Positions 988 through 64,000 of a stretch of 64,000 nucleotides of DNA are shown here, one piece after another. Made by a program: the position numbers and the translations under genes. Source of the stretch: Alphaproteobacteria bacterium. Its GTDB lineage: Bacteria; Pseudomonadota; Alphaproteobacteria; SP197. How positions within the stretch are numbered: the stretch's first letter is position 1; every line of letters starts with the position of its first letter. The notes below the pieces were generated by a model. The model worked only from the letters and a program-made list of their open reading frames with translations. It was not told the origin of the DNA and did no database searches. The stretch covers positions 3,415,757 through 3,479,756 of the forward strand of contig OZ244844.1 of the NCBI GenBank assembly GCA_965220805.1, read 5' to 3'.

Positions 988-1713
988 GTGAAAACATCGA
1001 CATATGCGACCGGGCCGGGAGGCAACGGGGCCGAGTCCCGGCTGCGTGTGCGATCTGGTAGATTCACTGCGATGACATCTGTTCGCTGGAAGGTGAGCGA
1101 CCGGCCGGTGGACTATCCGGATGCGGTGCGCTCCATGGAAGAGACGGCTGCCGGCATTCGCGCCGGCGAGGCGCCGGAGACGGTATGGCTGCTCGAACAT
1201 CCGAGCCTCTTCACGGCGGGAACGAGCGCGCGGGATGACGAACTCATCGATGCCGGAGACATTCCGGTCTACCGCACCGGGCGCGGCGGCCGCTACACAT
1301 GGCATGGTCCGGGACAGCAGGTCGCCTACGTCATGCTCGATCTCGCCCGCCGGGGACACGACCTGCATGTCTTTGTCCAAGACCTTGAAACCTGGATCAT
1401 CCGGACACTGGAGCGCTTCGGTGTGACGGGTCAATGCCGCCGGGACCGCGTCGGTATCTGGGTGGTCGACGCGTGCGGACGCGAGGACAAGATCGCGGCC
1501 ATCGGCATACGCGTGCGCCGCTGGGTGACGTATCACGGGATCAGCATCAACCGTGCCCCGGATCTCGCGCCTTATGGCCGCATCGTGCCCTGCGGCATCA
1601 GGTCTCACGGCGTGACATCCCTGGCGGCGCTCGGTATCGAGGTCGAAGGCCATACCTTGCGCACGGCCATGGAAGAGACGTTCCGCGACGTGTTTCACAA
1701 GGGACATATATAG
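988..1713 (+). CDS. lipB: lipoyl(octanoyl) transferase LipB; real start possibly the internal ATG near 1072; last 4 codons are supplied by the IS end
   Basis: Motifs LLEHPSLFTAG, RTGRGGRYTWHGPGQQVAY, GISIN; stop TAG 1711-1713 lies inside the IS terminal repeat. Confidence 0.8.
   Translation: MKTSTYATGPGGNGAESRLRVRSGRFTAMTSVRWKVSDRPVDYPDAVRSMEETAAGIRAGEAPETVWLLEHPSLFTAGTSARDDELIDAGDIPVYRTGRGGRYTWHGPGQQVAYVMLDLARRGHDLHVFVQDLETWIIRTLERFGVTGQCRRDRVGIWVVDACGREDKIAAIGIRVRRWVTYHGISINRAPDLAPYGRIVPCGIRSHGVTSLAALGIEVEGHTLRTAMEETFRDVFHKGHI
1693..1700. repeat. 8-bp direct repeat TTTCACAA flanking the IS (left copy); right copy at 3046..3053; putative target-site duplication
   Basis: Identical octamers immediately outside both terminal inverted repeats. 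Confidence 0.5.
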
Positions 1714-1880
1714 GAGAGTCACATTCATGCGGCCCACCGATCCGTTTCACGGTTCGCAGGCCCGTTCGATGCGGCAACCTCCCCGTGCAGCAGCGCCTGT
1801 CCCCGACGCCGTATGGTGCGGGCCGCGTTCAGGTCCGCATGATCCGCATGGCCGCAGGCCACGCATTCGAATGTCCTGCC
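1701..1880 (-). ncRNA. hypothetical omega/reRNA region overlapping the tnpB 3' end and right end, by analogy to IS200/IS605; not demonstrated
   Basis: Positional inference only; only 3 nt separate the tnpB stop (1725) from the terminal IR, so any scaffold must lie within the CDS. Confidence 0.2.
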
Positions 1881-2921
1881 CCGGCGCGAAGCGGCGTCAA
1901 CCGCGCCGCACGCCGCGCAGGATTGGCTCGTGAAGGCCGGATTGACAGCCACGACGCGCGGGGCCTTGTAGTCGAGCATGGCCCGCAAGCCGCCCCAGCC
2001 GGTGGCGAGAATCTCGCGGTTCAGCCCGGCTTTCGCCTTCACGTTCATCCCGGGGTGCTCGACTGTTCCCTTCGCGCTTCGCGTCATGGCCTTTGTGTTG
2101 AGATCCTCGATGACGACCGTTCCGCCCGCCAGGGCCCGGGAAACATGGTGCTGCCAGTTGCGGCGGCGCATGGCGATCCGGCGCTGCGTTCGGGCAAGCT
2201 GGCGCCGCGTCTTCTTGCGACGCCGGGAACCGCGCACCTGTCTCGCCAGCTTCTTCTGGTAGCGCCGCCTGCGGGCTTCGAGGCGGCGCGTCTTCGGTGC
2301 CTGGAACAGCCGCCCGTCCGACGCCGCCACCTGCCGCACGTTCATGTCGAGGCCGGTCACCGTACCGTCGTCGGGCCGCTCGACAGACGCCACGCTGTAG
2401 CAGACCGTGGCGTACCACTTGCCGCAGCGCTGCTTGATCACCGCCTGCACCGGCTCGCCCCCGGGGTAGGGGTTCCCTCCCCGGCAGCGAAGCCGCATCG
2501 GCCCGATCTTCGGGACGTAGAGCATGCCGTTCCGGATGCGGATGTCGTCCGGGAGCGTCACCGAGTCATCGCCTCGACGCTTGAAGCGGGGCCGTCCGGC
2601 GCGCCCGGAGAAGAACGCCTGCCAGGCATCCGCCTGGTACTTGAGAGCGTAGCGGACGGGCGCGAACGGCATCTCCTGCAACCACGGCGTCACCCTGCGA
2701 AGCCGGGTGAAGGCCTTGCCGAGCGTGAAGAACGACACGCCTGGCAGCCGGTCCGCTCCCGCCAGTCTCGCCGCTGCAACAAGCTGCTCCTGCTGGTCGA
2801 GCATGGCGTTCCAGACGAAGCGGCACGCGCCCGCGGTGGCCGCAAGCTTGCGCGCCTTCGCCCGGCTGCCGGGGAGCAACCGGTAGGTGACTTGCCGATA
2901 TTCGTGAGTATCCTGAGCCAT
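1725..2921 (-). CDS. tnpB: TnpB RNA-guided endonuclease family (IS605 OrfB), likely start MAQDTHEYRQ with GGAGGG Shine-Dalgarno; ORF track extends to 2978
   Basis: RuvC-I GLDMNV, RuvC-II VVIEDLN, zinc finger CAACG...CVACG, RuvC-III HADLNAARTI; N-terminal YRLLP...RFVWN helical domain. Confidence 0.85.
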   Translation of the reverse strand: MAQDTHEYRQVTYRLLPGSRAKARKLAATAGACRFVWNAMLDQQEQLVAAARLAGADRLPGVSFFTLGKAFTRLRRVTPWLQEMPFAPVRYALKYQADAWQAFFSGRAGRPRFKRRGDDSVTLPDDIRIRNGMLYVPKIGPMRLRCRGGNPYPGGEPVQAVIKQRCGKWYATVCYSVASVERPDDGTVTGLDMNVRQVAASDGRLFQAPKTRRLEARRRRYQKKLARQVRGSRRRKKTRRQLARTQRRIAMRRRNWQHHVSRALAGGTVVIEDLNTKAMTRSAKGTVEHPGMNVKAKAGLNREILATGWGGLRAMLDYKAPRVVAVNPAFTSQSCAACGAVDAASRRGRTFECVACGHADHADLNAARTIRRRGQALLHGEVAASNGPANRETDRWAA

Positions 2922-3023
2922 GCGCGGTCGGCCCTCCATTGGCCGTCTGGTGGGGCGGGGCAGGCGACCCCAAACCACACGCGTGTCATCCCTCGTGAAC
3001 GCCCGGAAGTCAAGGCGATCATG

Positions 3024-3045
3024 GTGACTTTCCTATATAATTCCC
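3024..3045. repeat. terminal inverted repeat of the IS, tnpB-upstream end (partner at 1701..1722)
   Basis: 19/22 match to the other end in inverted orientation. Confidence 0.6.
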
Positions 3046-3047
3046 TT

Positions 3048-3344
3048 TCACAACGTGGGTCGTTGAGCGAAACCGCACGCCACCTCTTCCGCGAACGGCT
3101 CGCACGCAACCTTCTCGACGACGGCCAGCGGCGGCCCCTGTTTCAGGAGGCCCAGCATGGTCTCGATATCCTCCTGGCTTCCGGCAAGGACCGCCTCCAC
3201 CGAACCATCGCTGCGGTTGCGGACCCAGCCGTCAAGGCCGAGATCGCGTGCTTCCTCGCGTGTCCATGCCCGGTACCACACGCCCTGTACGCGGCCGGTG
3301 ACCGTCACGTGCACCCGCCGCTCGTGACCGGGACCGGTGGTCAT
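3048..3344 (-). CDS. acyP: acylphosphatase
   Basis: VTGRVQGVWYR and GWVRNRSDGSVE signature motifs; 98 aa. Confidence 0.85.
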   Translation of the reverse strand: MTTGPGHERRVHVTVTGRVQGVWYRAWTREEARDLGLDGWVRNRSDGSVEAVLAGSQEDIETMLGLLKQGPPLAVVEKVACEPFAEEVACGFAQRPTL

Positions 3345-5338
3345 GGGGAAGAATGCGCGGCGTATTCGAGGAGCGTGGAATCAACGGAAACCGAGTCGCC
3401 GACAGCGACATGAACCTTGGCGATTTCGCCGGAGCGCTCCGCCCGCAGCACGTTCTCCATCTTCATGGCGTCAATGACGACGAGCATCTGACCCGTCTCG
3501 ATCACGTCACCTTCCCCGACCGCAAGATCGACGATCCGCCCTGGCATTGGCGAGGTGACAAGACGGGAGAGATCGGCAGAGGGTCTTGCCGGCATCCGCG
3601 ACAACAGCTTCGCCGCCCCGCCCGAAAGAACTGTCATCTGCTCGCTGACGCCGGCATGCGAGAGTTCCCAGGAGGTCCCTCTGCGCAGCACCTGGACGAC
3701 GGCGGGGAGACCTTCCACCTCACCCTGAAACAGTGTCTGGCCCGGACTCCAGGAACTCGTCACCGTGATGTCGCGCTCGCCGTTCCTCCAGACGATGCCG
3801 TCCCCGGTCAACCGGGCCGACACCTCGAACTCTTCGCCGGGGAACTGCACGACCCAGTCACGGGCCATCGACTCCGGCTCACGCATCGTCCCCGTGATCC
3901 TGCGGTCACGCTCGAGAACTCTGAGGTGGGCAAGAAGGCCCACACTGGTCAGCACCGTTCTTTCGCGCTCCGTCACGGGCGCCCCGGAAAAGCCATCAGG
4001 CCAGGTGCGATCAATGAAGGCGGTCGTCATGTCGCCCGCGGCAAACTCGGGATCACGCATGATCGCCGCCAGAAAGTCGATGTTGTGCTGCACGCCCCTG
4101 ATCTCGAAGGAATCGAGTGCGTGGCGCATCGCAGCAATGGCGGCCTGCCGGTCATCGCCATGCACCACCAGCTTGGCGATCATGGGGTCGTAGAACATCG
4201 TCACCTCGGACCCCTCCTCCACGCCACTGTCGATCCTCAGCGAACGGGTGGTCTGTGGAGGCCGGTAGGTGCGCAGGCGGCCGGTCGACGGCAGAAATCC
4301 GCGCCGAGAGTCCTCGGCGTAGATTCGTGCCTCGATGGACCACCCGTCGATGCCGACATCGTCGGCCGTGAAGGCGAGGGGTTCGCCGGCGGCGATACGG
4401 ATCATCTGTTCAACGATATCGACTCCGGTAATGAATTCCGTCACCGGATGCTCGACCTGGAGACGGGTGTTCATCTCCATGAAGTAGAAGCTCCTGTCGG
4501 GGTCGACGACAAACTCGACCGTGCCGGCCGATCGGTAGTTGACAGCGCGCGCCAAGGCACACGCCTCCCCGGCCATGGCCCGGCGCGTCTCCTCGTCGAT
4601 GAGCGGGCTCGGAGCTTCCTCGATCACCTTTTGATGACGCCTCTGGATCGAGCACTCCCGCTCGTTGAGAGCCACCACGGCGCCGTGGTTGTCGGCCAGA
4701 AGCTGGATTTCGATATGGCGTGGGCGTGTGATGAACTTCTCGAGGAAGACCCTGGTATCGCCGAAGGCAGTGGCGGCTTCCGATTGCGAGGACCGGAACC
4801 CTTCGACGAGTTCATCGTCATCGCCAACCACCCGCATTCCCTTGCCGCCGCCGCCGGCCGCCGGCTTGATCATGATCGGGTACCCGATGTCGAGGGCAGC
4901 CGCGAGTGCCTCGTCGACATCACTGGTCTCGGAAGCGCTGCCGGGAACTACACTCACCCCCGCCGCTTCGGCGATCCTCTTGGATTCGATCTTGTCGCCC
5001 ATGGCGGCAACGGCGCTGGCAGGCGGACCGATGAAAACGGCGCCCGCGGCCTCGACCGCCTCGACGAAGCGGGCGTTCTCGGCAAGAAATCCGAAACCGG
5101 GGTGGACCGCTTCGGCACCCGATCTCACAAGGGCATCGATGATCCTTTCGATGACAAGGTAGCTCTCCCCCGGCGGCGGCGGTCCGATGGGAAAGGACTC
5201 ATCGGCCATCCGGACGTGGAGTGCATCCTCGTCGGCCTGTGAATGAACCGCGACCGTGGCGATACCCAGTGCCCGGCAGGTCGTGATGATCCGGCAGGCA
5301 ATCTCCCCACGGTTGGCAATGAGAATTCGGTTGAACAC
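3341..5338 (-). CDS. pccA: propionyl-CoA (acyl-CoA) carboxylase alpha subunit: biotin carboxylase plus biotin carboxyl carrier domains
   Basis: MFNRILIANRGEIACRI N-terminus, ATP-grasp region, C-terminal AMKMEN biotinyl-lysine motif; adjacent to pccB. Confidence 0.85.
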   Translation of the reverse strand: MFNRILIANRGEIACRIITTCRALGIATVAVHSQADEDALHVRMADESFPIGPPPPGESYLVIERIIDALVRSGAEAVHPGFGFLAENARFVEAVEAAGAVFIGPPASAVAAMGDKIESKRIAEAAGVSVVPGSASETSDVDEALAAALDIGYPIMIKPAAGGGGKGMRVVGDDDELVEGFRSSQSEAATAFGDTRVFLEKFITRPRHIEIQLLADNHGAVVALNERECSIQRRHQKVIEEAPSPLIDEETRRAMAGEACALARAVNYRSAGTVEFVVDPDRSFYFMEMNTRLQVEHPVTEFITGVDIVEQMIRIAAGEPLAFTADDVGIDGWSIEARIYAEDSRRGFLPSTGRLRTYRPPQTTRSLRIDSGVEEGSEVTMFYDPMIAKLVVHGDDRQAAIAAMRHALDSFEIRGVQHNIDFLAAIMRDPEFAAGDMTTAFIDRTWPDGFSGAPVTERERTVLTSVGLLAHLRVLERDRRITGTMREPESMARDWVVQFPGEEFEVSARLTGDGIVWRNGERDITVTSSWSPGQTLFQGEVEGLPAVVQVLRRGTSWELSHAGVSEQMTVLSGGAAKLLSRMPARPSADLSRLVTSPMPGRIVDLAVGEGDVIETGQMLVVIDAMKMENVLRAERSGEIAKVHVAVGDSVSVDSTLLEYAAHSSP

Positions 5339-41186: not shown

Positions 41187-41262
41187 TGGCAGGAGTGGCA
41201 GGACTCGAACCCGCAACCCCCGGTTTTGGAGACCGGTGCTCTACCAGTTGAGCTACACTCCT
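41187..41262 (-). tRNA. tRNA-Trp (CCA anticodon), 3' CCA encoded
   Basis: Manual fold: acceptor AGGAGTG/CACTCCT, anticodon loop CUCCAAA, T-loop TTCGAGT. Confidence 0.9.
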
Positions 41263-41277
41263 TGAAATGCCTGTTTT

Positions 41278-42468
<1,191 letters not shown>

Positions 42469-42550
42469 CCTTCTCGACCTCTCCTGGTCAATGACCCTCC
42501 CTCACGAGGGAGGTGTTCCTGGTTATCACAAACATGGTCCCTGGTCGGGG

Positions 42551-42621
42551 AGCGGGTGGCGGGAATCGAACCCGCGTAACCAGCTTGGAAGGCTGGGGCT
42601 CTGCCACTGAGCTACACCCGC
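42551..42621 (-). tRNA. tRNA-Gly (TCC anticodon), 3' CCA not encoded
   Basis: Manual fold: acceptor GCGGGTG/CACCCGC, anticodon loop CTTCCAA, discriminator U. Confidence 0.85.
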
Positions 42622-42659
42622 CTCGTCGAGGTCCGCAACCGCCCCTCCCGGACCATGGA

Positions 42660-42744
42660 TGGTGGAGGGAGGTGGATTCGAACCACCGTAGGCATAGCCA
42701 ACGGGTTTACAGCCCGTCCCTTTTAACCGCTCAGGCATCCCTCC
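42660..42744 (-). tRNA. tRNA-Tyr (GTA anticodon), long variable arm, CCA encoded
   Basis: Manual fold: acceptor GGAGGGA/TCCCTCC, anticodon loop CTGTAAA, T-loop TTCGAAT. Confidence 0.85.
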
Positions 42745-42884
42745 GGGCAACATGTACTGCTGATGGTTGGTTTCGCGACACGATCAATCCGACAGCAGCC
42801 GCGCAACAAGGGCAGTGCCTCCTGCACTGTTGACGACCACGCCGGATTTCCAATTGGTGGAGCGCTCATATATAGCACAACGCC

Positions 42885-43628
42885 ATGGTCCGCAAGCACC
42901 TGGCACAACAAAAGTTCGCGAGGCCGCTGTGGATTCACGGGCACCACCCGGTGGCGGCGGCACTCGCCAATCCGCGACGGCGCGTGGTGCGCCTCGCAGC
43001 GACGCGCGAGATGCTCGAGCGGCTGGCGCCGCTGCTTTCGCAACGCCGCGACACGATTGCCTGTGATGCGATGGCGTCATCGTCGATTGCCGCTCTCCTC
43101 GAGGGGGACACCCGCCACCAGGGGGCGGCCCTCCTCGTCCATCCGCTTCCGGACCTCGCCCTCGGCGACATTCCCGGATCGGCCGATATCGTCGTGGTCC
43201 TCGACCGCATCAGCGATCCCCGCAACGCCGGCGCCATCATGCGATCGGCCGCCGCCTTTGGCGCGGCGGCGGTCATCATGCAGGAACGCCATGCGCCACC
43301 CCCTTCAGCGGCCCTTGCCAGCGCCGCCTCCGGGGCCCTCGAATGGGTGCCCCTGGTGCGCGTCCCCAACATCGCCCGCGCCCTCGACGGCCTCAAGCAA
43401 CGCGGTTTCTGGATTACCGGCCTCGATGCCCAGGCACCCCTCACCATGGGCCAGGCGCCGGTGCCGCTTCCCGCCGCACTGGTCCTCGGCGCCGAGGGGA
43501 GCGGTCTGCGCCGTCTCGTTGCCCGGACCTGCGATCAGCTGGTGAGCATCGCCACCCCGGGCCGCGACCTCAGTCTCAACGTGGCCAGTGCCGCCGCCAT
43601 TGCCCTCCACGAGATCCGCACCCATTGA
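42885..43628 (+). CDS. rlmB: TrmH/SpoU-family RNA 2'-O-methyltransferase (RlmB-like)
   Basis: SPOUT motifs VLDRISDPRNAGAIMRSAAAFGA and LVLGAEGSGLRRL. Confidence 0.75.
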   Translation: MVRKHLAQQKFARPLWIHGHHPVAAALANPRRRVVRLAATREMLERLAPLLSQRRDTIACDAMASSSIAALLEGDTRHQGAALLVHPLPDLALGDIPGSADIVVVLDRISDPRNAGAIMRSAAAFGAAAVIMQERHAPPPSAALASAASGALEWVPLVRVPNIARALDGLKQRGFWITGLDAQAPLTMGQAPVPLPAALVLGAEGSGLRRLVARTCDQLVSIATPGRDLSLNVASAAAIALHEIRTH

Positions 43629-43723
43629 CGAGGGAGCAGCACGGGCGGGCGACCGCTTACTTTGCGAATCAATCCGGCGCAATCACATCGGCCGACCCGA
43701 AGCAGATGTGAAGCCGCAAGGAT

Positions 43724-43759
43724 GGGGCCGGACTCCCCGAGGGGAGATCCGGCCCGTTT
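43724..43759 (+). terminator. GC-rich hairpin (GGGCCGGACTCCCC...GGGGAGATCCGGCCC) followed by GTTT, between convergent rlmB and the substrate-binding-protein gene
   Basis: Read from sequence; weak T tract. Confidence 0.3.
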
Positions 43760-43787
43760 GACAATATGGAACCGCCTGGCCTGTGCG

Positions 43788-45398
43788 TCAGGCTACACCT
43801 TCCCTGAACGACCACTTCCGGAACATGCGGAAGCTGTCAAAAGGCGTTGCGCCAAGAACCTCACCGCCGGTATCGATCCGGTCGCGGACGCCATGCACCA
43901 GGTTCTGGAACAGGGGCACGATGGTCGAGCCGCGCTCGTGCAGGATCAGCTGCACGTCGGCATAGAGAAGCTTGCGCTTCTCGGTATCGAGCTCGGTCCT
44001 CGCGGCCACCACCAGATCGGTGAACTCGCGGTCACACCAGTACGTGTCGGCCCATGCCGCATCGCAGATGTAGGCGAGCGTGAGCATCAGGTCCGGGGTC
44101 GGCCGTGCGTTCCAGTAGCAGTAGGAGAAAGGTACCGTGCCCCAGACATCGGCCCAGTATCCGTCGACCGGTTCGCGCACGACTTCGAGGTTGAACCCGG
44201 CCTGCTTGGCGTTCTCCGCATAGAGGACGCCGGCATCGACCGAGCCGCTGAACGCCGCGGCAGAGGCATGGATCTGGATCGTCTCACCACCGTAGCCGGC
44301 CTTCTCCAGATGGTGCCTCGCCCTGTCAGGATCGAACTCGCGCTGCGGAATGGCGGGATTGAAGAACTGGTCGAACGGTGCGACCGGATGATCGTTCGCG
44401 ACCGAGGCATGACCGTTGAAGATCACGTCGCGCATCTGCTCGCGATCAACCAGGTACTTCATGGCCAGCCGGAAATCGAGGTTGTCGAATGGCGCCGTGT
44501 CGGCGCGCATCGGCATCGTGATGGTCGAGCCGCCGGCAACGCTCAGAATGTCCACACCCTGGTTCTGAGCCAGCAGGTCCGCGGTCTTCGGCTCGACCGG
44601 CCACACCGCCTGGACGGAGTCGCTGGCCAGTGCCGACGAGAGGGAGGCGTGATCCTTCACCGAGAGATGCTCGAAGGAATCAAAGAAGCCCTGGTCTTCC
44701 AGGAAGTAGTTCGCGAACCGCTCCCCTGTGCCGCGCACACCCGGCTCATAGCCCTGCATGACGTAGGCGCCTGTGCCCATGCCCGACATGTCGACCTCGC
44801 CGTCGACCGACGGCGCCACCTGGAACAGGTACTGCGCCATGTAGTAGGGGAAGTCGGCCGCGGGCTCGCTCAATTCGAAGATCACGTCGTCGCCGTCCGA
44901 GCGGATGTCCGACACGATCGCCATCATTGACGCGCCGCCTGACTGTGAATCGGGGCCACGGTGAACGTTCATCGAGTCGATCACGTCCTGGGCTTCAAGG
45001 GACTTGCCGTTGTGGAACTCGACGCCCTGGCGCAACTTGAAGGTCCAGGTCGCGCCTGCGTCCGAAGCATTCCACTCTGTGGCCAGCATGGGATCGAGTC
45101 CGCCATCGGTCCGCGCATCGACCAGCTTGCTGCGGAAGGTCTCCGTGAGCAAGGTCTGGTGCGAGTTGCCGGCATGGCCAATGATGAAGGAGTCGGCCGA
45201 CTGCCCGTCACCCGCCGCCGTGACGACGTGCCCGCCCCGGACCTGTTCGGCGCGCGCCGATTCACTCCACAAGGTCGTGGCAGCCGCAACCGTCAGGCCC
45301 GATGCAACCGCCCGTTCCATGAAGTCGCGGCGTGTCACGCCCTTCCGACCGGCAAAGGCCCTCAACGTCCGTTCAACATCGTTGGTCTGTTCGTTCAT
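43788..45398 (-). CDS. ABC transporter substrate-binding protein family 5 (peptide/nickel) with Tat signal (RRDFMERAVASGL); start taken at MNEQTNDVE
   Basis: Homology to DppA/OppA-like SBPs; twin-arginine motif. Confidence 0.75.
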   Translation of the reverse strand: MNEQTNDVERTLRAFAGRKGVTRRDFMERAVASGLTVAAATTLWSESARAEQVRGGHVVTAAGDGQSADSFIIGHAGNSHQTLLTETFRSKLVDARTDGGLDPMLATEWNASDAGATWTFKLRQGVEFHNGKSLEAQDVIDSMNVHRGPDSQSGGASMMAIVSDIRSDGDDVIFELSEPAADFPYYMAQYLFQVAPSVDGEVDMSGMGTGAYVMQGYEPGVRGTGERFANYFLEDQGFFDSFEHLSVKDHASLSSALASDSVQAVWPVEPKTADLLAQNQGVDILSVAGGSTITMPMRADTAPFDNLDFRLAMKYLVDREQMRDVIFNGHASVANDHPVAPFDQFFNPAIPQREFDPDRARHHLEKAGYGGETIQIHASAAAFSGSVDAGVLYAENAKQAGFNLEVVREPVDGYWADVWGTVPFSYCYWNARPTPDLMLTLAYICDAAWADTYWCDREFTDLVVAARTELDTEKRKLLYADVQLILHERGSTIVPLFQNLVHGVRDRIDTGGEVLGATPFDSFRMFRKWSFREGVA

Positions 45399-45681
45399 GT
45401 CCTCCCCCCCTGTTCCCGAGGTTGTCTTGCTGTCGAGGTTCCCGGACAAGCGCACCCGGGACACTCGAATGAATGACAATCCTAGCATGAAACGTCGTCG
45501 TGCCTATTGACACGATCAGACCGCGGCCGAAATCGGCGCGGCGATATCACGGGAGAGCGGCAACGCGCGCCATGTGATCTGCGCGCTCAAGAGAGGGCAT
45601 GGCCGGCCCGCCCGACTGCGGGTCTTGGACTCATACATGTCTGCTGGCGTCGGCAGACTGTCACCGTTTCATCCTGGCCGG

Positions 45682-46416
45682 TCAGGCAGCGCGCTCCAAC
45701 GCGGCCTCGAACCAGCGGATCCACGCCTCGCCAGGGACAACGAAACTGTACCCGGCGACCAGGCGGGGACGCCGTTCGCGGGCGATGGCGAGCAGGCGAC
45801 GGCCCCGGTTCGCGATCTCCGCGGGGTCACTGTAGGGATTGAGCTGCATGGTGTCGTCCGGCGGGAAGGCGTAGTCGCACGCGAAGAGCACGTCCTGCCA
45901 CAGGTAAGCCGTGAATCCCGGGGTGTGGCCACCGATATGGAAGGCCTCGATGCCGTGGCTTGTGAAATCGCCACGGAAGGCATCGTCCACGGGAAAGGCA
46001 GCGGCGAGCGGGCTCTCCGTCTCGGCCTCGTGGATGTGAACAGCCGCGTTCCACTGTGCGCGGTACTGGTTCGAAGCGCCCATGAAGTCCTTGTGGGTGA
46101 AGAAAATGTCGCTGACGGGCGCAAGTGTGCGGTTGAACGCGCTGGGGGAGTCGATCCATACCGACCCTTCGTCCGTCTCGATGCGGTAGCAGGCGTGCTC
46201 CAGACCGAGGCGCGGACGGGAAAGAAGCTGGCTGACGCCGTCGGTGACGTCCCTCGCCTCCACGCGATATCGCTCCTCGCCGACGTCCCAGGAGACGAAG
46301 CGGTCATGGCGGGCGCCGCAGAAGGGGCAGACGTCTGGCATTTCGCCGATCATGTTGTATCCGCAGGGCACACAGACCCACTGCCTCAGCGGAAATCCCT
46401 CCACGAGTTCCATCAT
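45682..46416 (-). CDS. rubredoxin-like zinc-ribbon (CVPCG...CPFCG) fused to a metallo-beta-lactamase-fold domain; start ATGATG with GGAGGG Shine-Dalgarno (ORF track extends to 46761)
   Basis: CxxC-N14-CxxC ribbon; MBL-like HIGGHTPG motif; R-rich N-terminal extension looks like a GC artefact. Confidence 0.55.
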   Translation of the reverse strand: MMELVEGFPLRQWVCVPCGYNMIGEMPDVCPFCGARHDRFVSWDVGEERYRVEARDVTDGVSQLLSRPRLGLEHACYRIETDEGSVWIDSPSAFNRTLAPVSDIFFTHKDFMGASNQYRAQWNAAVHIHEAETESPLAAAFPVDDAFRGDFTSHGIEAFHIGGHTPGFTAYLWQDVLFACDYAFPPDDTMQLNPYSDPAEIANRGRRLLAIARERRPRLVAGYSFVVPGEAWIRWFEAALERAA

Positions 46417-46795
46417 GCCACCCTCCGAGTTCGAGCCATCATAGCGACCGAAGTCCCCTTCCGCAGCATGTCCAAGCGAGGACGACGACCTCCTCGACCC
46501 AAAGGGCGATGTATCGCGCATCACAATCCAGCACCGTGGGCCAGGCAATTGTCGAAAATCGCGATGTCTTCGACGTCGGTGAGCCTCACCAGGTCTGCGT
46601 TGCGATCGGTTGCAGGTGCCGGAGCGGCGGCGTCTGCCCGCGTCGAAGTTCTCGCGCTGGCGAATATGGACAGGATGAAGATGGTTCCGCCGAAGCGGCT
46701 GACAGCGTCTTCGTTCGGGAGTGCGGGGCAACCCCGGATCCCGCGGGCGGGAGTGTTTCACAAGGGGCGTGGTCCCGTGCTACGAAGCGGCGGGA

Positions 46796-46871
46796 GCCGG
46801 GTTAGCTCAGTTGGTAGAGCAACCGCCTTGTAAGCGGTAGGTCGCGAGTTCGAGTCCCGCACCCGGCACCA
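46796..46871 (+). tRNA. tRNA-Thr (TGT anticodon), CCA encoded
   Basis: Manual fold: acceptor GCCGGGT/ACCCGGC, D-arm GCTCAGTTGGTAGAGC, anticodon loop CTTGTAA. Confidence 0.9.
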
Positions 46872-63545: not shown

Positions 63546-63752
63546 AAAGGGGGCGCGCACACGCCCCTCTTGCCCCCTCTGTCACCGAACCTGAGAGCAT
63601 CACCGGAACACCGGCTTTCCCCTTCGGTGAGAAGACGCACCAGCGCCTTCTTCTCTCCAGAGCAGCCATTCACCTGCGGTCCCTTTGCCTGAGAGATTTC
63701 GGGACAGATTGCACCTTCGGCGCCGGTCTCGGGACCGGTCTCTCCCGCAGGT
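63546..63752 (-). promoter_or_regulatory. tandem glycine riboswitch (two aptamers) with a terminator-like GC hairpin and U tract at its 3' end (63546-63566), upstream of gcvT
   Basis: Minus strand reads CGGGAGAGACCGG...GCGCCGAAGGTGCAA...CUCUCAGGCAAAGGGACCG then CUCUGGAGAG...CACCGAAGGGGAAAG...CUCUCAGG...GACAGAGGGGGCAAGAGG, matching the glycine aptamer consensus twice; followed by GGGGCGTGTGCGCGCCCCTTTG. Confidence 0.8.
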
Positions 63753-64000
63753 TTCAGCGGCTCCCAAGACTATTGAACCCGCCACCCGCCGTGTCAACCT
63801 CCAACCGGCAATCAGGTGGGACACGGTTCCAATGGACTTGCTGATGCTGTTGCGGGCTTTCCGACCATGGCGGATACCGTGTCGTACCCTTGATCGATCA
63901 GGGCGAGGAGCGCGAACACTGAAACCCGCGTTTGCGGCGCACGACGACAAGCTTGAGGTGGGTCCGGCGAACGGGCGAACCCGCTCGCGGCCCCTCTGGG

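What the first reader, a model, noticed from the sequence alone, without database searches (positions are those of the whole stretch)
1701..1900. If an omega/reRNA exists it must lie almost entirely inside the tnpB coding 3' end, and its guide would be the lipB 3' end
In characterised TnpB (OMEGA) systems the guide RNA scaffold spans the tnpB 3' end and the right end, and the guide is the flanking DNA. Here the right end is only 25 nt long, inverted repeat included, and abuts the lipB stop codon. A scaffold would therefore have to be encoded within roughly the last 150-200 nt of tnpB, and the adjacent guide-equivalent sequence is the reverse complement of the lipB C-terminal codons (TTGTGAAACACGTCGCGG...). 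Whether this TnpB is an active RNA-guided nuclease, and what it would target, is open.
Basis: inference. Interest (0 to 1): 0.55.

Follow-up and report, generated by a model that had tools for sequence, protein, structure and literature searches.

The report
TnpB guide RNA inside gene end
The last ~110-140 bases of this mobile element, nearly all inside the tnpB gene, encode a conserved folded RNA that looks like the guide RNA of the TnpB nuclease; that layout is normal for TnpB, but the element carrying it is an IS1595-type cut-and-duplicate transposon rather than the usual IS605 type.

Summary
tnpB (minus strand, stop 1727-1725) ends 24 nt before the element end at 1701, and the flank reads TTGTGAAACACGTCGCGG.

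Across 39 relatives (50-100% protein identity) the last ~140 nt fold into a conserved multi-stem RNA on the tnpB sense strand. 94% of pair cells are paired, against 28-42% in slid controls. 21 of 36 pairs show compensatory double changes. Synonymous constraint rises over the last ~40 codons. The layout resembles the ISDra2 omegaRNA, whose tnpB stop also lies about 10 nt from the element end, so a scaffold inside the coding sequence is normal.

- The element (1701-3045) has 24-nt terminal inverted repeats and a perfect 8-bp target duplication (TTTCACAA).
- A metagenome scaffold carries the exact empty site.
- In Rhodothermales relatives the same ends flank an IS1595-family DDE transposase, and transposase and tnpB modules transpose together.
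- So this is a non-autonomous IS1595-family element, not IS200/IS605.
- The inverted repeat also encodes the 3' end of the scaffold.
- A G precedes the duplicated 8-mer on the left side in 39 of 42 insertions, with no mirror-image C. This is a candidate one-base TAM.

RNA expression and nuclease activity are untested.

The parts
1725..2921 (-). tnpB coding sequence including stop (398 aa). An in-frame GTG at 2978 would add 19 residues.
   Evidence: ORF list. Pfam and NCBIfam guided_TnpB at 4e-61. The RuvC residues D192 and D363 are invariant and E272 is nearly invariant; of the zinc-finger cysteines, C338, C353 and C356 are invariant and C335 is nearly invariant, in 41 homologs.
1701..1842 (-). 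Candidate omegaRNA scaffold, 142 nt, read 1842 to 1701. The core from stem S2 to the end is 1809-1701 (109 nt).
   Evidence: Covariance model R1 hits here at 109.9 bits, the only hit in the 64-kb window; this copy was among the sequences the model was trained on.
1824..1839 (-). Stem S1 (UGCG/CGCG). It lies upstream and has the weakest support. It may correspond to the dispensable 5' region of the ISDra2 omegaRNA.
   Evidence: helix 1: 92.9% of cells paired, one pair with double changes (GC 23, GU 8, AU 4).
1793..1809 (-). Stem S2 (GCGUC/GGCGC) with loop GGGGACA. The loop is complementary to the 3' tail UGUCCC, a possible pseudoknot at -103..-98 with -6..-1.
   Evidence: helix 2: 98.5% paired, with a GC-to-CG swap in 11 sequences. 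The pseudoknot pairing is possible in 84% of cells but has no covariation support. Its position matches the ISDra2 pseudoknot, -105..-103 with -5..-3.
1748..1787 (-). Long hairpin S3: CACGG/CCGUG outer stem, AGGU/GCCU middle stem, CCG/CGG tip.
   Evidence: helices 3-5: 96-100% paired. There is a CG-to-GC swap in 9 sequences, and all four tip pairs show double changes.
1713..1738 (-). Hairpin S4/S5. Its 5' strand is the last tnpB codons and its 3' strand is the inner half of the right inverted repeat. The stop codon UGA (1727-1725) sits in the loop.
   Evidence: Per-sequence folds in 30 relatives. helices 6-7: 85-89% paired, 11 of 14 pairs with double changes (for example AUCG/CGAU replaced by AUAC/GUAU).
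1701..1712 (-). Single-stranded 3' tail of the scaffold, UAUAUAUGUCCC. It is the outer half of the inverted repeat. The last LipB codons and the lipB stop codon overlap it on the plus strand.
   Evidence: The terminal TCCC is conserved in nearly all copies; only the final CCC is invariant.
1701..1724 (.). Right terminal inverted repeat.
3021..3045 (.). Left terminal inverted repeat (GGGAATTATATAGGAAAGTCACCAT on the tnpB strand).
1693..1700 (.). Target-site duplication copy TTTCACAA on the right-end side. On the tnpB strand it reads TTGTGAAA, the first 8 nt after the scaffold.
   Evidence: The empty allele L081 holds a single copy.
3046..3053 (.). Target-site duplication copy TTTCACAA on the left-end side. 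It contains the acylphosphatase stop codon (3048-3050).
1681..1700 (-). Candidate guide TTGTGAAACACGTCGCGGAA, antisense to the lipB 3' end. If the duplicated 8-mer is skipped, as in Fanzor, the guide would start at 1692 (CACGTCGCGG...).
   Evidence: The position is inferred by analogy with TnpB systems. Conservation stops at 1701 and the flanks vary between copies. The exact target exists in the empty allele.
3054..3054 (-). G immediately 5' of the duplicated 8-mer on the left side (C on the plus strand). Candidate TAM base of the empty-site target.
   Evidence: G at this position in 39 of 42 independent insertions (p = 7e-19 against a background of 0.28). The mirror position shows C in 15 of 42, not significant.
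2922..2983 (-). 62-nt leader upstream of the ATG, almost invariant between two clades whose TnpB proteins are only ~75% identical. Function unknown.

Best explanation
Window 1701-3045 is a 1345-bp non-autonomous transposon of the IS1595 (DDE) family whose only gene is tnpB.

The tnpB transcript continues through the stop codon and the 24-nt right inverted repeat into the flank. Its last ~110-140 nt before the element end fold into an omegaRNA scaffold:
- stem S2, whose loop may pair with the 3' tail as a pseudoknot;
- a long three-part hairpin, S3;
- a hairpin, S4/S5, that pairs the last tnpB codons with the inner half of the inverted repeat and holds the stop codon in its loop;
- a short single-stranded tail ending ...GUCCC.

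The flank that follows, TTGTGAAACACGTCGC..., is antisense to the lipB 3' end, and its first 8 nt are the target duplication. It would serve as the guide. TnpB loaded with this RNA would recognise the unoccupied lipB/acyP junction, 5'-G|TTGTGAAACACGTCGC. At the occupied junction the base 5' of the match is the C that ends the repeat, and at the left junction only 8 nt match, so both would be spared. Movement to new sites is done in trans by an IS1595-family transposase that recognises the same ends.

Shown here: the anatomy, the target duplication and empty site, the structure conservation and covariation, the intact catalytic residues, and the shared ends with a transposase in relatives.

Inferred: that the RNA is made and bound by TnpB, where the guide starts, that G is the TAM, and that a cognate transposase exists in this genome.
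For: Protein: TnpB domains, an invariant or near-invariant D-E-D triad and the zinc-finger cysteines.

RNA structure:
- RNAalifold on an unfitted MAFFT alignment of 38 ends finds stems with compensatory changes.
- The named structure on the raw alignment A3 gives 90% paired cells, against 31-40% with slid partners, and 11 pairs with double changes, against 2-5.
- On the model-fitted alignment A5 (39 sequences) 94% are paired, against 28-42%. 21 of 36 pairs have double changes and the covariation score is 0.314, against 0.03-0.07.
- Many conserved G-U pairs (U38-G48 in 37 of 39 sequences) are only possible on the tnpB sense strand.
- Some swaps cost amino-acid changes on both sides, such as His/Glu to Asp/Gln at the S3 outer pair.
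- Synonymous codon identity rises from about 0.5 to 0.63-0.80 over residues 355-398.

Resemblance to a solved system: the order of elements and the position of the possible pseudoknot match the ISDra2 omegaRNA. The ISDra2 scaffold also overlaps tnpB almost to the element end.

Guide position and read-through: flanks diverge exactly after ...TCCC in 78 copies. There is no intrinsic terminator between the stop codon and the flank.

Transposon type:
- Terminal inverted repeat plus perfect 8-bp duplication.
- 42 independent insertions with at least 7 of 8 bases duplicated.
- An exact empty allele in a metagenome scaffold.
- An IS1595 transposase with the same ends, and 8 composite transposase-plus-tnpB copies each with its own perfect duplication.
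Against: - No RNA data, so expression, processing and binding are all inferred.
- No Rfam family matches the region, even at E <= 10.
- Single-sequence folding energies are no better than shuffles (z = 0.49 and 0.08). Thermodynamic stability therefore gives no support, and the case rests on covariation.
- The pseudoknot has no covariation support. About half the family has a U-U mismatch in it.
- The window copy has a divergent S3 tip and scores lower against the model than most relatives (110 against up to 167 bits).
- No IS1595 transposase lies within the 64-kb window. A metagenome scan for this copy's repeat sequence found nothing.
- The G at -1 could reflect a transposase preference rather than a TAM. 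No tnpB-less elements with the same ends were available to separate the two.
Confidence: 0.75

Rival explanations
1. The omegaRNA is as described, but the guide starts only after the duplicated 8-mer, at 1692 (CACGTCGCGGAACG...). The 3' copy of the duplication would be carried as a linker, and the TAM would be read from the 8-mer itself. This is what is reported for Fanzor proteins in DDE transposons.
For: A review of Fanzor structures states that the 5' target duplication is part of the TAM and the 3' duplication is included in the omegaRNA scaffold (PMC13565253). The 8-mer has a composition bias, A/T-rich at positions 1-3 and 6-7.
Against: The 8-mer varies in sequence between copies, which is hard to reconcile with protein-read TAM recognition. 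This model gives no reason for the strong one-sided G nine bases upstream of such a guide (39 of 42). Fanzor duplications are 2-4 bp, not 8.
Confidence: 0.15
2. The conserved structure is not a guide RNA. It would be an mRNA 3' stability or translation-control element, or a by-product of the transposase-binding repeat plus codon constraints. TnpB here would be inactive or would use no flank-derived guide.
For: No Rfam match. No thermodynamic signal in single sequences. Part of the conservation, the outer repeat and the RuvC-III motif codons, has other explanations.
Against: Compensatory changes occur in five separate helices, including between coding sequence and the repeat. The architecture parallels a solved omegaRNA. 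The catalytic residues are intact and the family is highly mobile, with dozens of copies per genome each carrying its own duplication. There is no U-tract terminator.
Confidence: 0.07
3. The element is a conventional IS200/IS605 (IS1341-group) tnpB-only element moved by a Y1 TnpA. The 8-bp direct repeat would be a coincidence or a cleavage-site motif.
For: NCBIfam IS200_TnpB matches below its cutoff (148 bits against 425). tnpB-only elements are usually filed this way.
Against: There are 24-nt terminal inverted repeats. Perfect 8-bp duplications have a different sequence at each of 42 sites. The empty allele holds a single copy. The same ends flank an IS1595 DDE transposase, and composites move as a unit. 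IS200/IS605 elements have neither inverted repeats nor target duplications (PMC13565253).
Confidence: 0.02

Closest known systems
ISDra2 TnpB-omegaRNA (Deinococcus radiodurans, IS200/IS605 family)
   Same: - Protein of about 400 aa with D-E-D at nearly the same positions.
- Scaffold of about 116 nt encoded on the sense strand over the dispensable C-terminal tail of tnpB.
- Stop codon a few nt from the element end (-10 in ISDra2, -25 here).
- Same order of elements: a stem whose loop region pairs with the last bases before the guide, a long internal hairpin, a final hairpin, then the guide in the flank (PMC10097598).
   Different: - No detectable sequence similarity of the RNA.
- The element ends are terminal inverted repeats with an 8-bp duplication, not asymmetric hairpin ends.
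- The partner enzyme is a DDE transposase, not a Y1 TnpA.
- The candidate TAM is a single G rather than TTGAT.
- The first 8 guide bases are a target duplication.
DDE-transposase-associated TnpB branches (DDE-1 to DDE-6 of Altae-Tran et al. 2023, PMC10691335)
   Same: tnpB sits inside a transposon with symmetrical inverted terminal repeats. The tnpB 3' end is close to the transposon end. Solo tnpB copies are flanked by the same ends as transposase-bearing copies, implying mobilisation in trans. This is exactly what is seen here.
   Different: The families named in the text available to me are IS630 and ISL2, IS630 and IS1031. IS1595 appears in neither paper's main text nor together with TnpB in any paper found. 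The supplementary tables could not be read, so overlap with one of the six branches cannot be excluded. No omegaRNA structure or TAM has been described for such elements in what I could read.
IS1595 family insertion sequences (ISNwi1-type ends, with or without passenger genes)
   Same: 8-bp target duplication and inverted repeats. The transposase has DDE_Tnp_IS1595 and Zn_ribbon_IS1595 domains. From memory of the ISfinder family table, the ISNwi1 group has ends 'ggnnatTAT', 8-bp duplications and passenger-carrying members. That matches GGGAATTATAT and GGGGCTTATAT here.
   Different: The window element has no transposase at all; tnpB is its only gene. Its right repeat also encodes part of a structured RNA. 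The subgroup assignment rests on memory, not on a test.
Fanzor (eukaryotic TnpB homologs) in DDE transposons
   Same: An RNA-guided nuclease carried as a passenger of a transposon that has inverted repeats and makes target duplications. The guide RNA runs through the repeat into the flank.
   Different: This element is bacterial and the protein is of ordinary TnpB size. The duplication is 8 bp and variable in sequence, so it is more likely part of the guide than part of the TAM.

Membership tests
TnpB-omegaRNA (OMEGA) system | TnpB protein with a RuvC D-E-D triad and a zinc finger | tested here: met
   Pfam and NCBIfam hits. D192 and D363 are invariant and E272 is nearly invariant in 41 homologs. 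Of the four zinc-finger cysteines, C338, C353 and C356 are invariant and C335 is nearly invariant.
TnpB-omegaRNA (OMEGA) system | Conserved structured RNA on the sense strand spanning the tnpB 3' end and the element end | tested here: met
   Covariation (94% paired, 21 of 36 pairs with double changes, controls 28-42%). G-U pairs are strand-specific. Synonymous constraint is raised.
TnpB-omegaRNA (OMEGA) system | Variable, copy-specific sequence (the guide) directly after the conserved scaffold | tested here: met
   All 78 copies share an end of the form ...TCCC (only the final CCC is strictly invariant) and then diverge.
TnpB-omegaRNA (OMEGA) system | Pseudoknot between the last scaffold bases and an upstream segment | tested here: inconclusive
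   The S2 loop GGGACA can pair with the tail UGUCCC (6 bp in the window), at the same relative position as in ISDra2. There is no covariation, and about half the family has a U-U mismatch there.
TnpB-omegaRNA (OMEGA) system | Fixed TAM 5' of the target in the unoccupied site | tested here: inconclusive
   G at -1 in 39 of 42 sites, and one-sided. A transposase preference cannot be excluded.
TnpB-omegaRNA (OMEGA) system | RNA is expressed, processed and bound by TnpB; RNA-guided DNA cleavage | not testable with these tools
   No expression or biochemical data are available.
TnpB-omegaRNA (OMEGA) system | Match to a curated RNA family for TnpB- or IscB-associated RNAs in Rfam | tested here: not met
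   No relevant hit at E <= 10 in 1400-3300. This is not a defining feature of the system, only of the curated families.
IS200/IS605 family (IS1341 group) | No terminal inverted repeats, no target duplication, insertion next to a fixed 4-5-nt motif, Y1 TnpA | tested here: not met
   24-nt inverted repeats. 8-bp duplications of variable sequence. The empty site holds one copy. The defining features are as stated in PMC13565253.
IS607 family | Serine-recombinase TnpA, no inverted repeats, no target duplication | tested here: not met
   The same anatomy as above. NCBIfam IS607_TnpB scores 91 bits against a cutoff of 350.
IS1595 family | Terminal inverted repeats and an 8-bp target duplication | tested here: met
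IS1595 family | Ends shared with an element encoding a DDE_Tnp_IS1595 transposase | tested here: met
   L046 1556-3330 encodes a transposase (Pfam 9e-38, NCBIfam transpos_IS1595 3e-56) between nearly the same repeats as the neighbouring tnpB module. Eight composites are each flanked by their own 8-bp duplication. This was shown in Rhodothermales relatives, not in this genome.
IS1595 family | A cognate transposase present in the same genome as the window element | not testable with these tools
   There is none in the 64-kb window. The rest of the 4.1-Mb genome could not be scanned.
IS1595 family, ISNwi1 group | End consensus ggnnatTAT | not tested
   The ends GGGAATTATAT and GGGACATATAT fit the consensus as I recall it from the ISfinder table. 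No source for it could be read here.

The most novel reading that the evidence does not exclude
This is a previously undescribed bacterial pairing of a TnpB-omegaRNA module with IS1595-family DDE transposons. In it, the transposase-binding inverted repeat doubles as the 3' end of the guide-RNA scaffold. The 8-bp target duplication becomes the seed of the guide. The nuclease needs only a single G as its TAM. That would give a 398-aa RNA-guided nuclease with an almost unrestricted target range. It would also be a bacterial counterpart of the Fanzor/DDE-transposon partnership, in which the one-sided G at insertion sites records selection by TnpB-driven homing rather than a transposase preference.
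Probability: 0.3. Interest if true: 0.7.

Novelty: new member of a known kind. Interest (0 to 1): 0.5.

Why it matters
For the question asked, the answer is reassuringly ordinary. A guide-RNA scaffold buried in the tnpB 3' end is how the best-studied TnpB works, and this family shows clear comparative evidence for one.

The context adds three things:
- It gives a well-sampled example of TnpB riding a classical DDE transposon with inverted repeats and target duplications in bacteria. Hundreds of copies lie in sponge- and marine-associated genomes (560 relatives confirmed, 80 examined), with solo and transposase-linked forms and a natural empty allele. This class is known to exist but has not been characterised mechanistically.
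- It makes concrete, testable predictions for that class: a scaffold model, a guide start, and a one-base candidate TAM.
- If the single-G TAM is real, these compact nucleases would be attractive for genome editing.

It also bears on why a cut-and-paste-type transposon would keep a homing nuclease.

Tried and rejected
- Rfam, permissive search of 1400-3300 and gathering-threshold search of the whole window: no relevant RNA family.
- Single-sequence folding of the window and L012 scaffolds: energies no better than shuffles, so not used as evidence.
- Pseudoknot covariation: none.
- Sigma-70 promoter and intrinsic terminator scans of 1500-3200: none found.
- Exact-protein lookup of the window TnpB in the contig index: not on record.
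- Cluster listing: gave no organism names beyond Rhodospirillales MAGs.
- Metagenome scan for the window's repeat sequence, looking for a transposase-bearing partner: 0 hits.
- tblastn of the IS1595 transposase against the window: no hit.
- Search for tnpB-less elements with the same ends and a perfect duplication, to separate transposase preference from TAM: none in the 80 loci.
- Literature searches for TnpB with IS1595 or ISNwi1: nothing relevant. The supplements of the PNAS 2023 survey are not held.
- Plasmid collection: closest TnpB relatives are below 40% identity, so no annotated close relative exists there.
- The IS200/IS605 and IS607 readings were considered and rejected on anatomy (see the membership tests).
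Full report
**What is at the coordinates**

On the minus strand, tnpB runs from ATG 2921 (an in-frame GTG lies at 2978) to TGA at 1727-1725. The 398-aa product has the three TnpB Pfam domains and matches NCBIfam guided_TnpB at 4e-61. In an alignment of 41 homologs the RuvC residues D192 and D363 are invariant and E272 is nearly invariant. Three of the four zinc-finger cysteines are invariant and the fourth, C335, is nearly so.

lipB (plus strand, 1072-1713) and an acylphosphatase gene (minus strand, 3048-3344) flank the element. Only 24 nt separate the tnpB stop from the point where the element ends (1701). The one correction concerns the lipB stop codon (1711-1713). It lies inside the right end rather than next to it.

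**The element is not an IS200/IS605-type element**

- The 24 nt after the stop are one arm of a terminal inverted repeat, 1701-1724 against 3021-3045. The arms are 88% complementary, and none of 100 shuffles matched.
- The element is bracketed by a perfect 8-bp direct repeat, TTTCACAA (1693-1700 and 3046-3053).
- I fetched 80 loci encoding relatives of 50-91% identity from species-representative genomes. In 78 of them the right end could be located and ends ...TATAAKTCCC or a close variant. The tnpB stop lies 5-32 nt before it, and in Rhodothermales the TAA is inside the repeat itself.
- Left ends begin GGGGCTTATAT, GGGAATTATAT and similar. 42 independent insertions carry an 8-bp duplication of different sequence, with at least 7 of 8 bases matching.
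- A metagenome scaffold (L081) encodes the identical acylphosphatase and the lipB 3' end. It holds ...CCCACG-TTGTGAAA-CACGTCGCGGAACG... with a single 8-mer and no element. This is the exact empty allele.
- In the empty allele LipB ends ...RDVFHNVGR. In the window it ends ...RDVFHKGHI.

**Who moves it**

In Rhodothermales relatives a 318-aa ORF lies between nearly the same inverted repeats as the neighbouring tnpB module (GGGAGTTATATAGCTGA... against GGGAGTTATATGGCTGA...). It has DDE_Tnp_IS1595 (9e-38), Zn_ribbon_IS1595 and NCBIfam transpos_IS1595 (3e-56). Homologs on plasmids are annotated as IS1595 family transposase.

Eight loci carry a 3.7-kb composite of the transposase module, a 470-bp spacer and the tnpB module. 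Each composite is flanked by its own perfect 8-bp duplication. The tnpB module alone also occurs with its own duplications.

The window element is therefore best read as a non-autonomous IS1595-family element mobilised in trans. No transposase lies in the 64-kb window, so for this genome that step is an inference.

**Is there an omegaRNA?**

Rfam gives nothing. Single-sequence folding is no better than shuffles. The comparative evidence is strong.

- Synonymous codon identity among 30 non-redundant homologs is about 0.5 along the gene. It rises to 0.63-0.80 over residues 355-398.
- RNAalifold on an unfitted alignment of the last 180 nt of 38 elements finds stems with compensatory changes.
- I defined a structure with five helical regions, S1 to S5, and counted it on a raw MAFFT alignment. 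It gave 90% paired cells against 31-40% when partners are slid. It gave 11 pairs with double changes against 2-5, and a covariation score of 0.171 against 0.02-0.07.
- A covariance model built from it hits every element end at 94-168 bits. It hits the window only at 1701-1842. The window copy was among the sequences the model was trained on.
- On the model-fitted alignment of 39 sequences, 94% of cells pair and 21 of 36 pairs show double changes. The covariation score is 0.314, against 0.03-0.07 in controls. That alignment leans towards the structure, but the unfitted alignments say the same.
- Conserved G-U pairs place the structure on the tnpB sense strand.
- Some swaps change amino acids on both sides. 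CACGG/CCGUG becomes GACGG/CCGUC, which turns His and Glu into Asp and Gln.

**The structure in the window copy**

Positions below run 1842 to 1701.

| Element | Window coordinates | Description |
|---|---|---|
| S1 | 1839-1824 | UGCG/CGCG; weakest support |
| S2 | 1809-1793 | GCGUC/GGCGC with loop GGGGACA |
| S3 | 1787-1748 | CACGG/CCGUG, AGGU/GCCU, CCG/CGG |
| S4/S5 | 1738-1713 | Last codons paired with the inner half of the inverted repeat; UGA in the loop |
| Tail | 1712-1701 | UAUAUAUGUCCC |

Pairing between the coding strand and the repeat covaries across clades: AUCG/CGAU, AUAC/GUAU and GUGGC/GCUAC. The repeat is therefore constrained both as a transposase site and as RNA. The S2 loop can pair with the tail (GGGACA with UGUCCC), but this has no covariation support.

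**Comparison with known systems**

In ISDra2 the omegaRNA overlaps tnpB residues 335-408, positions -231 to -10. The functional 116-nt scaffold lies over the dispensable C-terminal tail. A pseudoknot joins -5..-3 to -105..-103 in the region of stem 1. A long internal hairpin and a final hairpin precede the guide (PMC10097598).

The order of elements here is the same. The possible pseudoknot, -6..-1 with -103..-98, sits at the same place. A scaffold almost wholly inside the coding sequence is therefore the rule, not an oddity.

TnpBs associated with DDE transposases are also already on record. They have inverted terminal repeats, and some solo copies are mobilised in trans (PMC10691335). The families named are IS630, ISL2 and IS1031. 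I found no mention of IS1595 together with TnpB, and I could not read the supplementary tables.

**What the guide would be and what it would target**

Conservation stops at 1701 and the flanks differ between copies. No terminator intervenes. By analogy the guide is the flank, TTGTGAAACACGTCGC..., whose first 8 nt are the target duplication.

Across 42 insertions the base just 5' of the duplicated 8-mer on the left side is G in 39 (p = 7e-19). The mirror position on the right shows C in only 15, which is not significant. A symmetric transposase preference would predict both. A one-sided G is what a TAM adjacent to a guide that begins with the duplication would leave.

On this reading the target is the empty allele, 5'-G|TTGTGAAACACGTCGC, which exists in nature. 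The occupied right junction has C at -1. The left junction matches only 8 nt. Both would be spared.

The alternative is that the guide starts after the duplication, as reported for Fanzor. It is less likely because the 8-mer is variable, but it is not excluded. I could not find tnpB-less elements with these ends to test whether the G comes from the transposase.

**Verdict**

The feature it highlights is normal for TnpB.

The added value is the context. This is a member of a large, mobile clade of TnpB-omegaRNA modules carried by IS1595-family DDE transposons. It comes with a concrete RNA model, a natural empty site, and a candidate single-base TAM. Expression, TnpB binding, cleavage and the TAM all remain to be shown.

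Noticed in passing
window 2922-2983 (minus strand), and the same stretch in L002-L010: The 62 nt immediately upstream of the tnpB ATG (GCGCGTGTGGTTTGGGGTCGCCTGCCCCGCCCCACCAGACGGCCAATGGAGGGCCGACCGCGC) are almost invariant between two clades. Their TnpB proteins are only ~75% identical and their inverted repeats differ. This points to a functional leader such as an RNA structure, a regulatory site or an N-terminal extension from GTG 2978. Other clades have an unrelated leader with a GUGUUCUUGUGCUACAAGAACAC hairpin.
   Followed up: partly
L036 3805-3875 against 5173-5247; L030 3785-3859 against 5170-5248: In Paracoccaceae elements the left/right inverted repeat extends to about 70 nt. It includes an inverted copy of the 3' half of the omegaRNA scaffold and the last tnpB codons at the left end. 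The covariance model gives weak antisense hits there (21-35 bits). A truncated outward-reading scaffold at the left end is conceivable.
   Followed up: partly
window 1693-1713 and 3046-3066; L081 2620-2638: In the empty allele lipB and the acylphosphatase gene converge and overlap by 19 nt. The insertion landed in that overlap. The duplicated 8-mer preserves the acylphosphatase stop codon, and LipB keeps its length with its last four residues changed (NVGR to KGHI). Neither gene is truncated.
   Followed up: yes
L046, L053, L054, L059, L061, L062, L065, L069 (about 1550-5256): A 3.7-kb composite occurs at eight different sites in one Rhodothermales genome, each with its own 8-bp duplication. 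It consists of the IS1595 transposase module, a 470-bp captured spacer and the tnpB module, and it uses the outermost ends. That genome holds dozens of tnpB copies.
   Followed up: yes
L013 and L035: Two copies from different MAGs share the same left flank but have different right flanks. Only L035 has a matching duplication. This suggests recombination between copies or a rearrangement at one of them.
   Followed up: no
L056 5257-6120: A tnpB element sits directly upstream of a second, 64%-identical IS1595 transposase gene that contains an in-frame stop. The arrangement looks like an insertion into or next to a decaying IS1595 copy.
   Followed up: no
window 63569-63757 (minus strand); 41190-46868: A tandem glycine riboswitch (two aptamers, 46 and 76 bits) and four tRNA genes were found by the Rfam gathering-threshold scan. 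They are unrelated to the finding.
   Followed up: no
L032 757-909 and L072 2656-2809: Additional full-length matches to the omegaRNA model lie upstream of the main tnpB copy in these loci. They are presumably further element copies or fragments.
   Followed up: no
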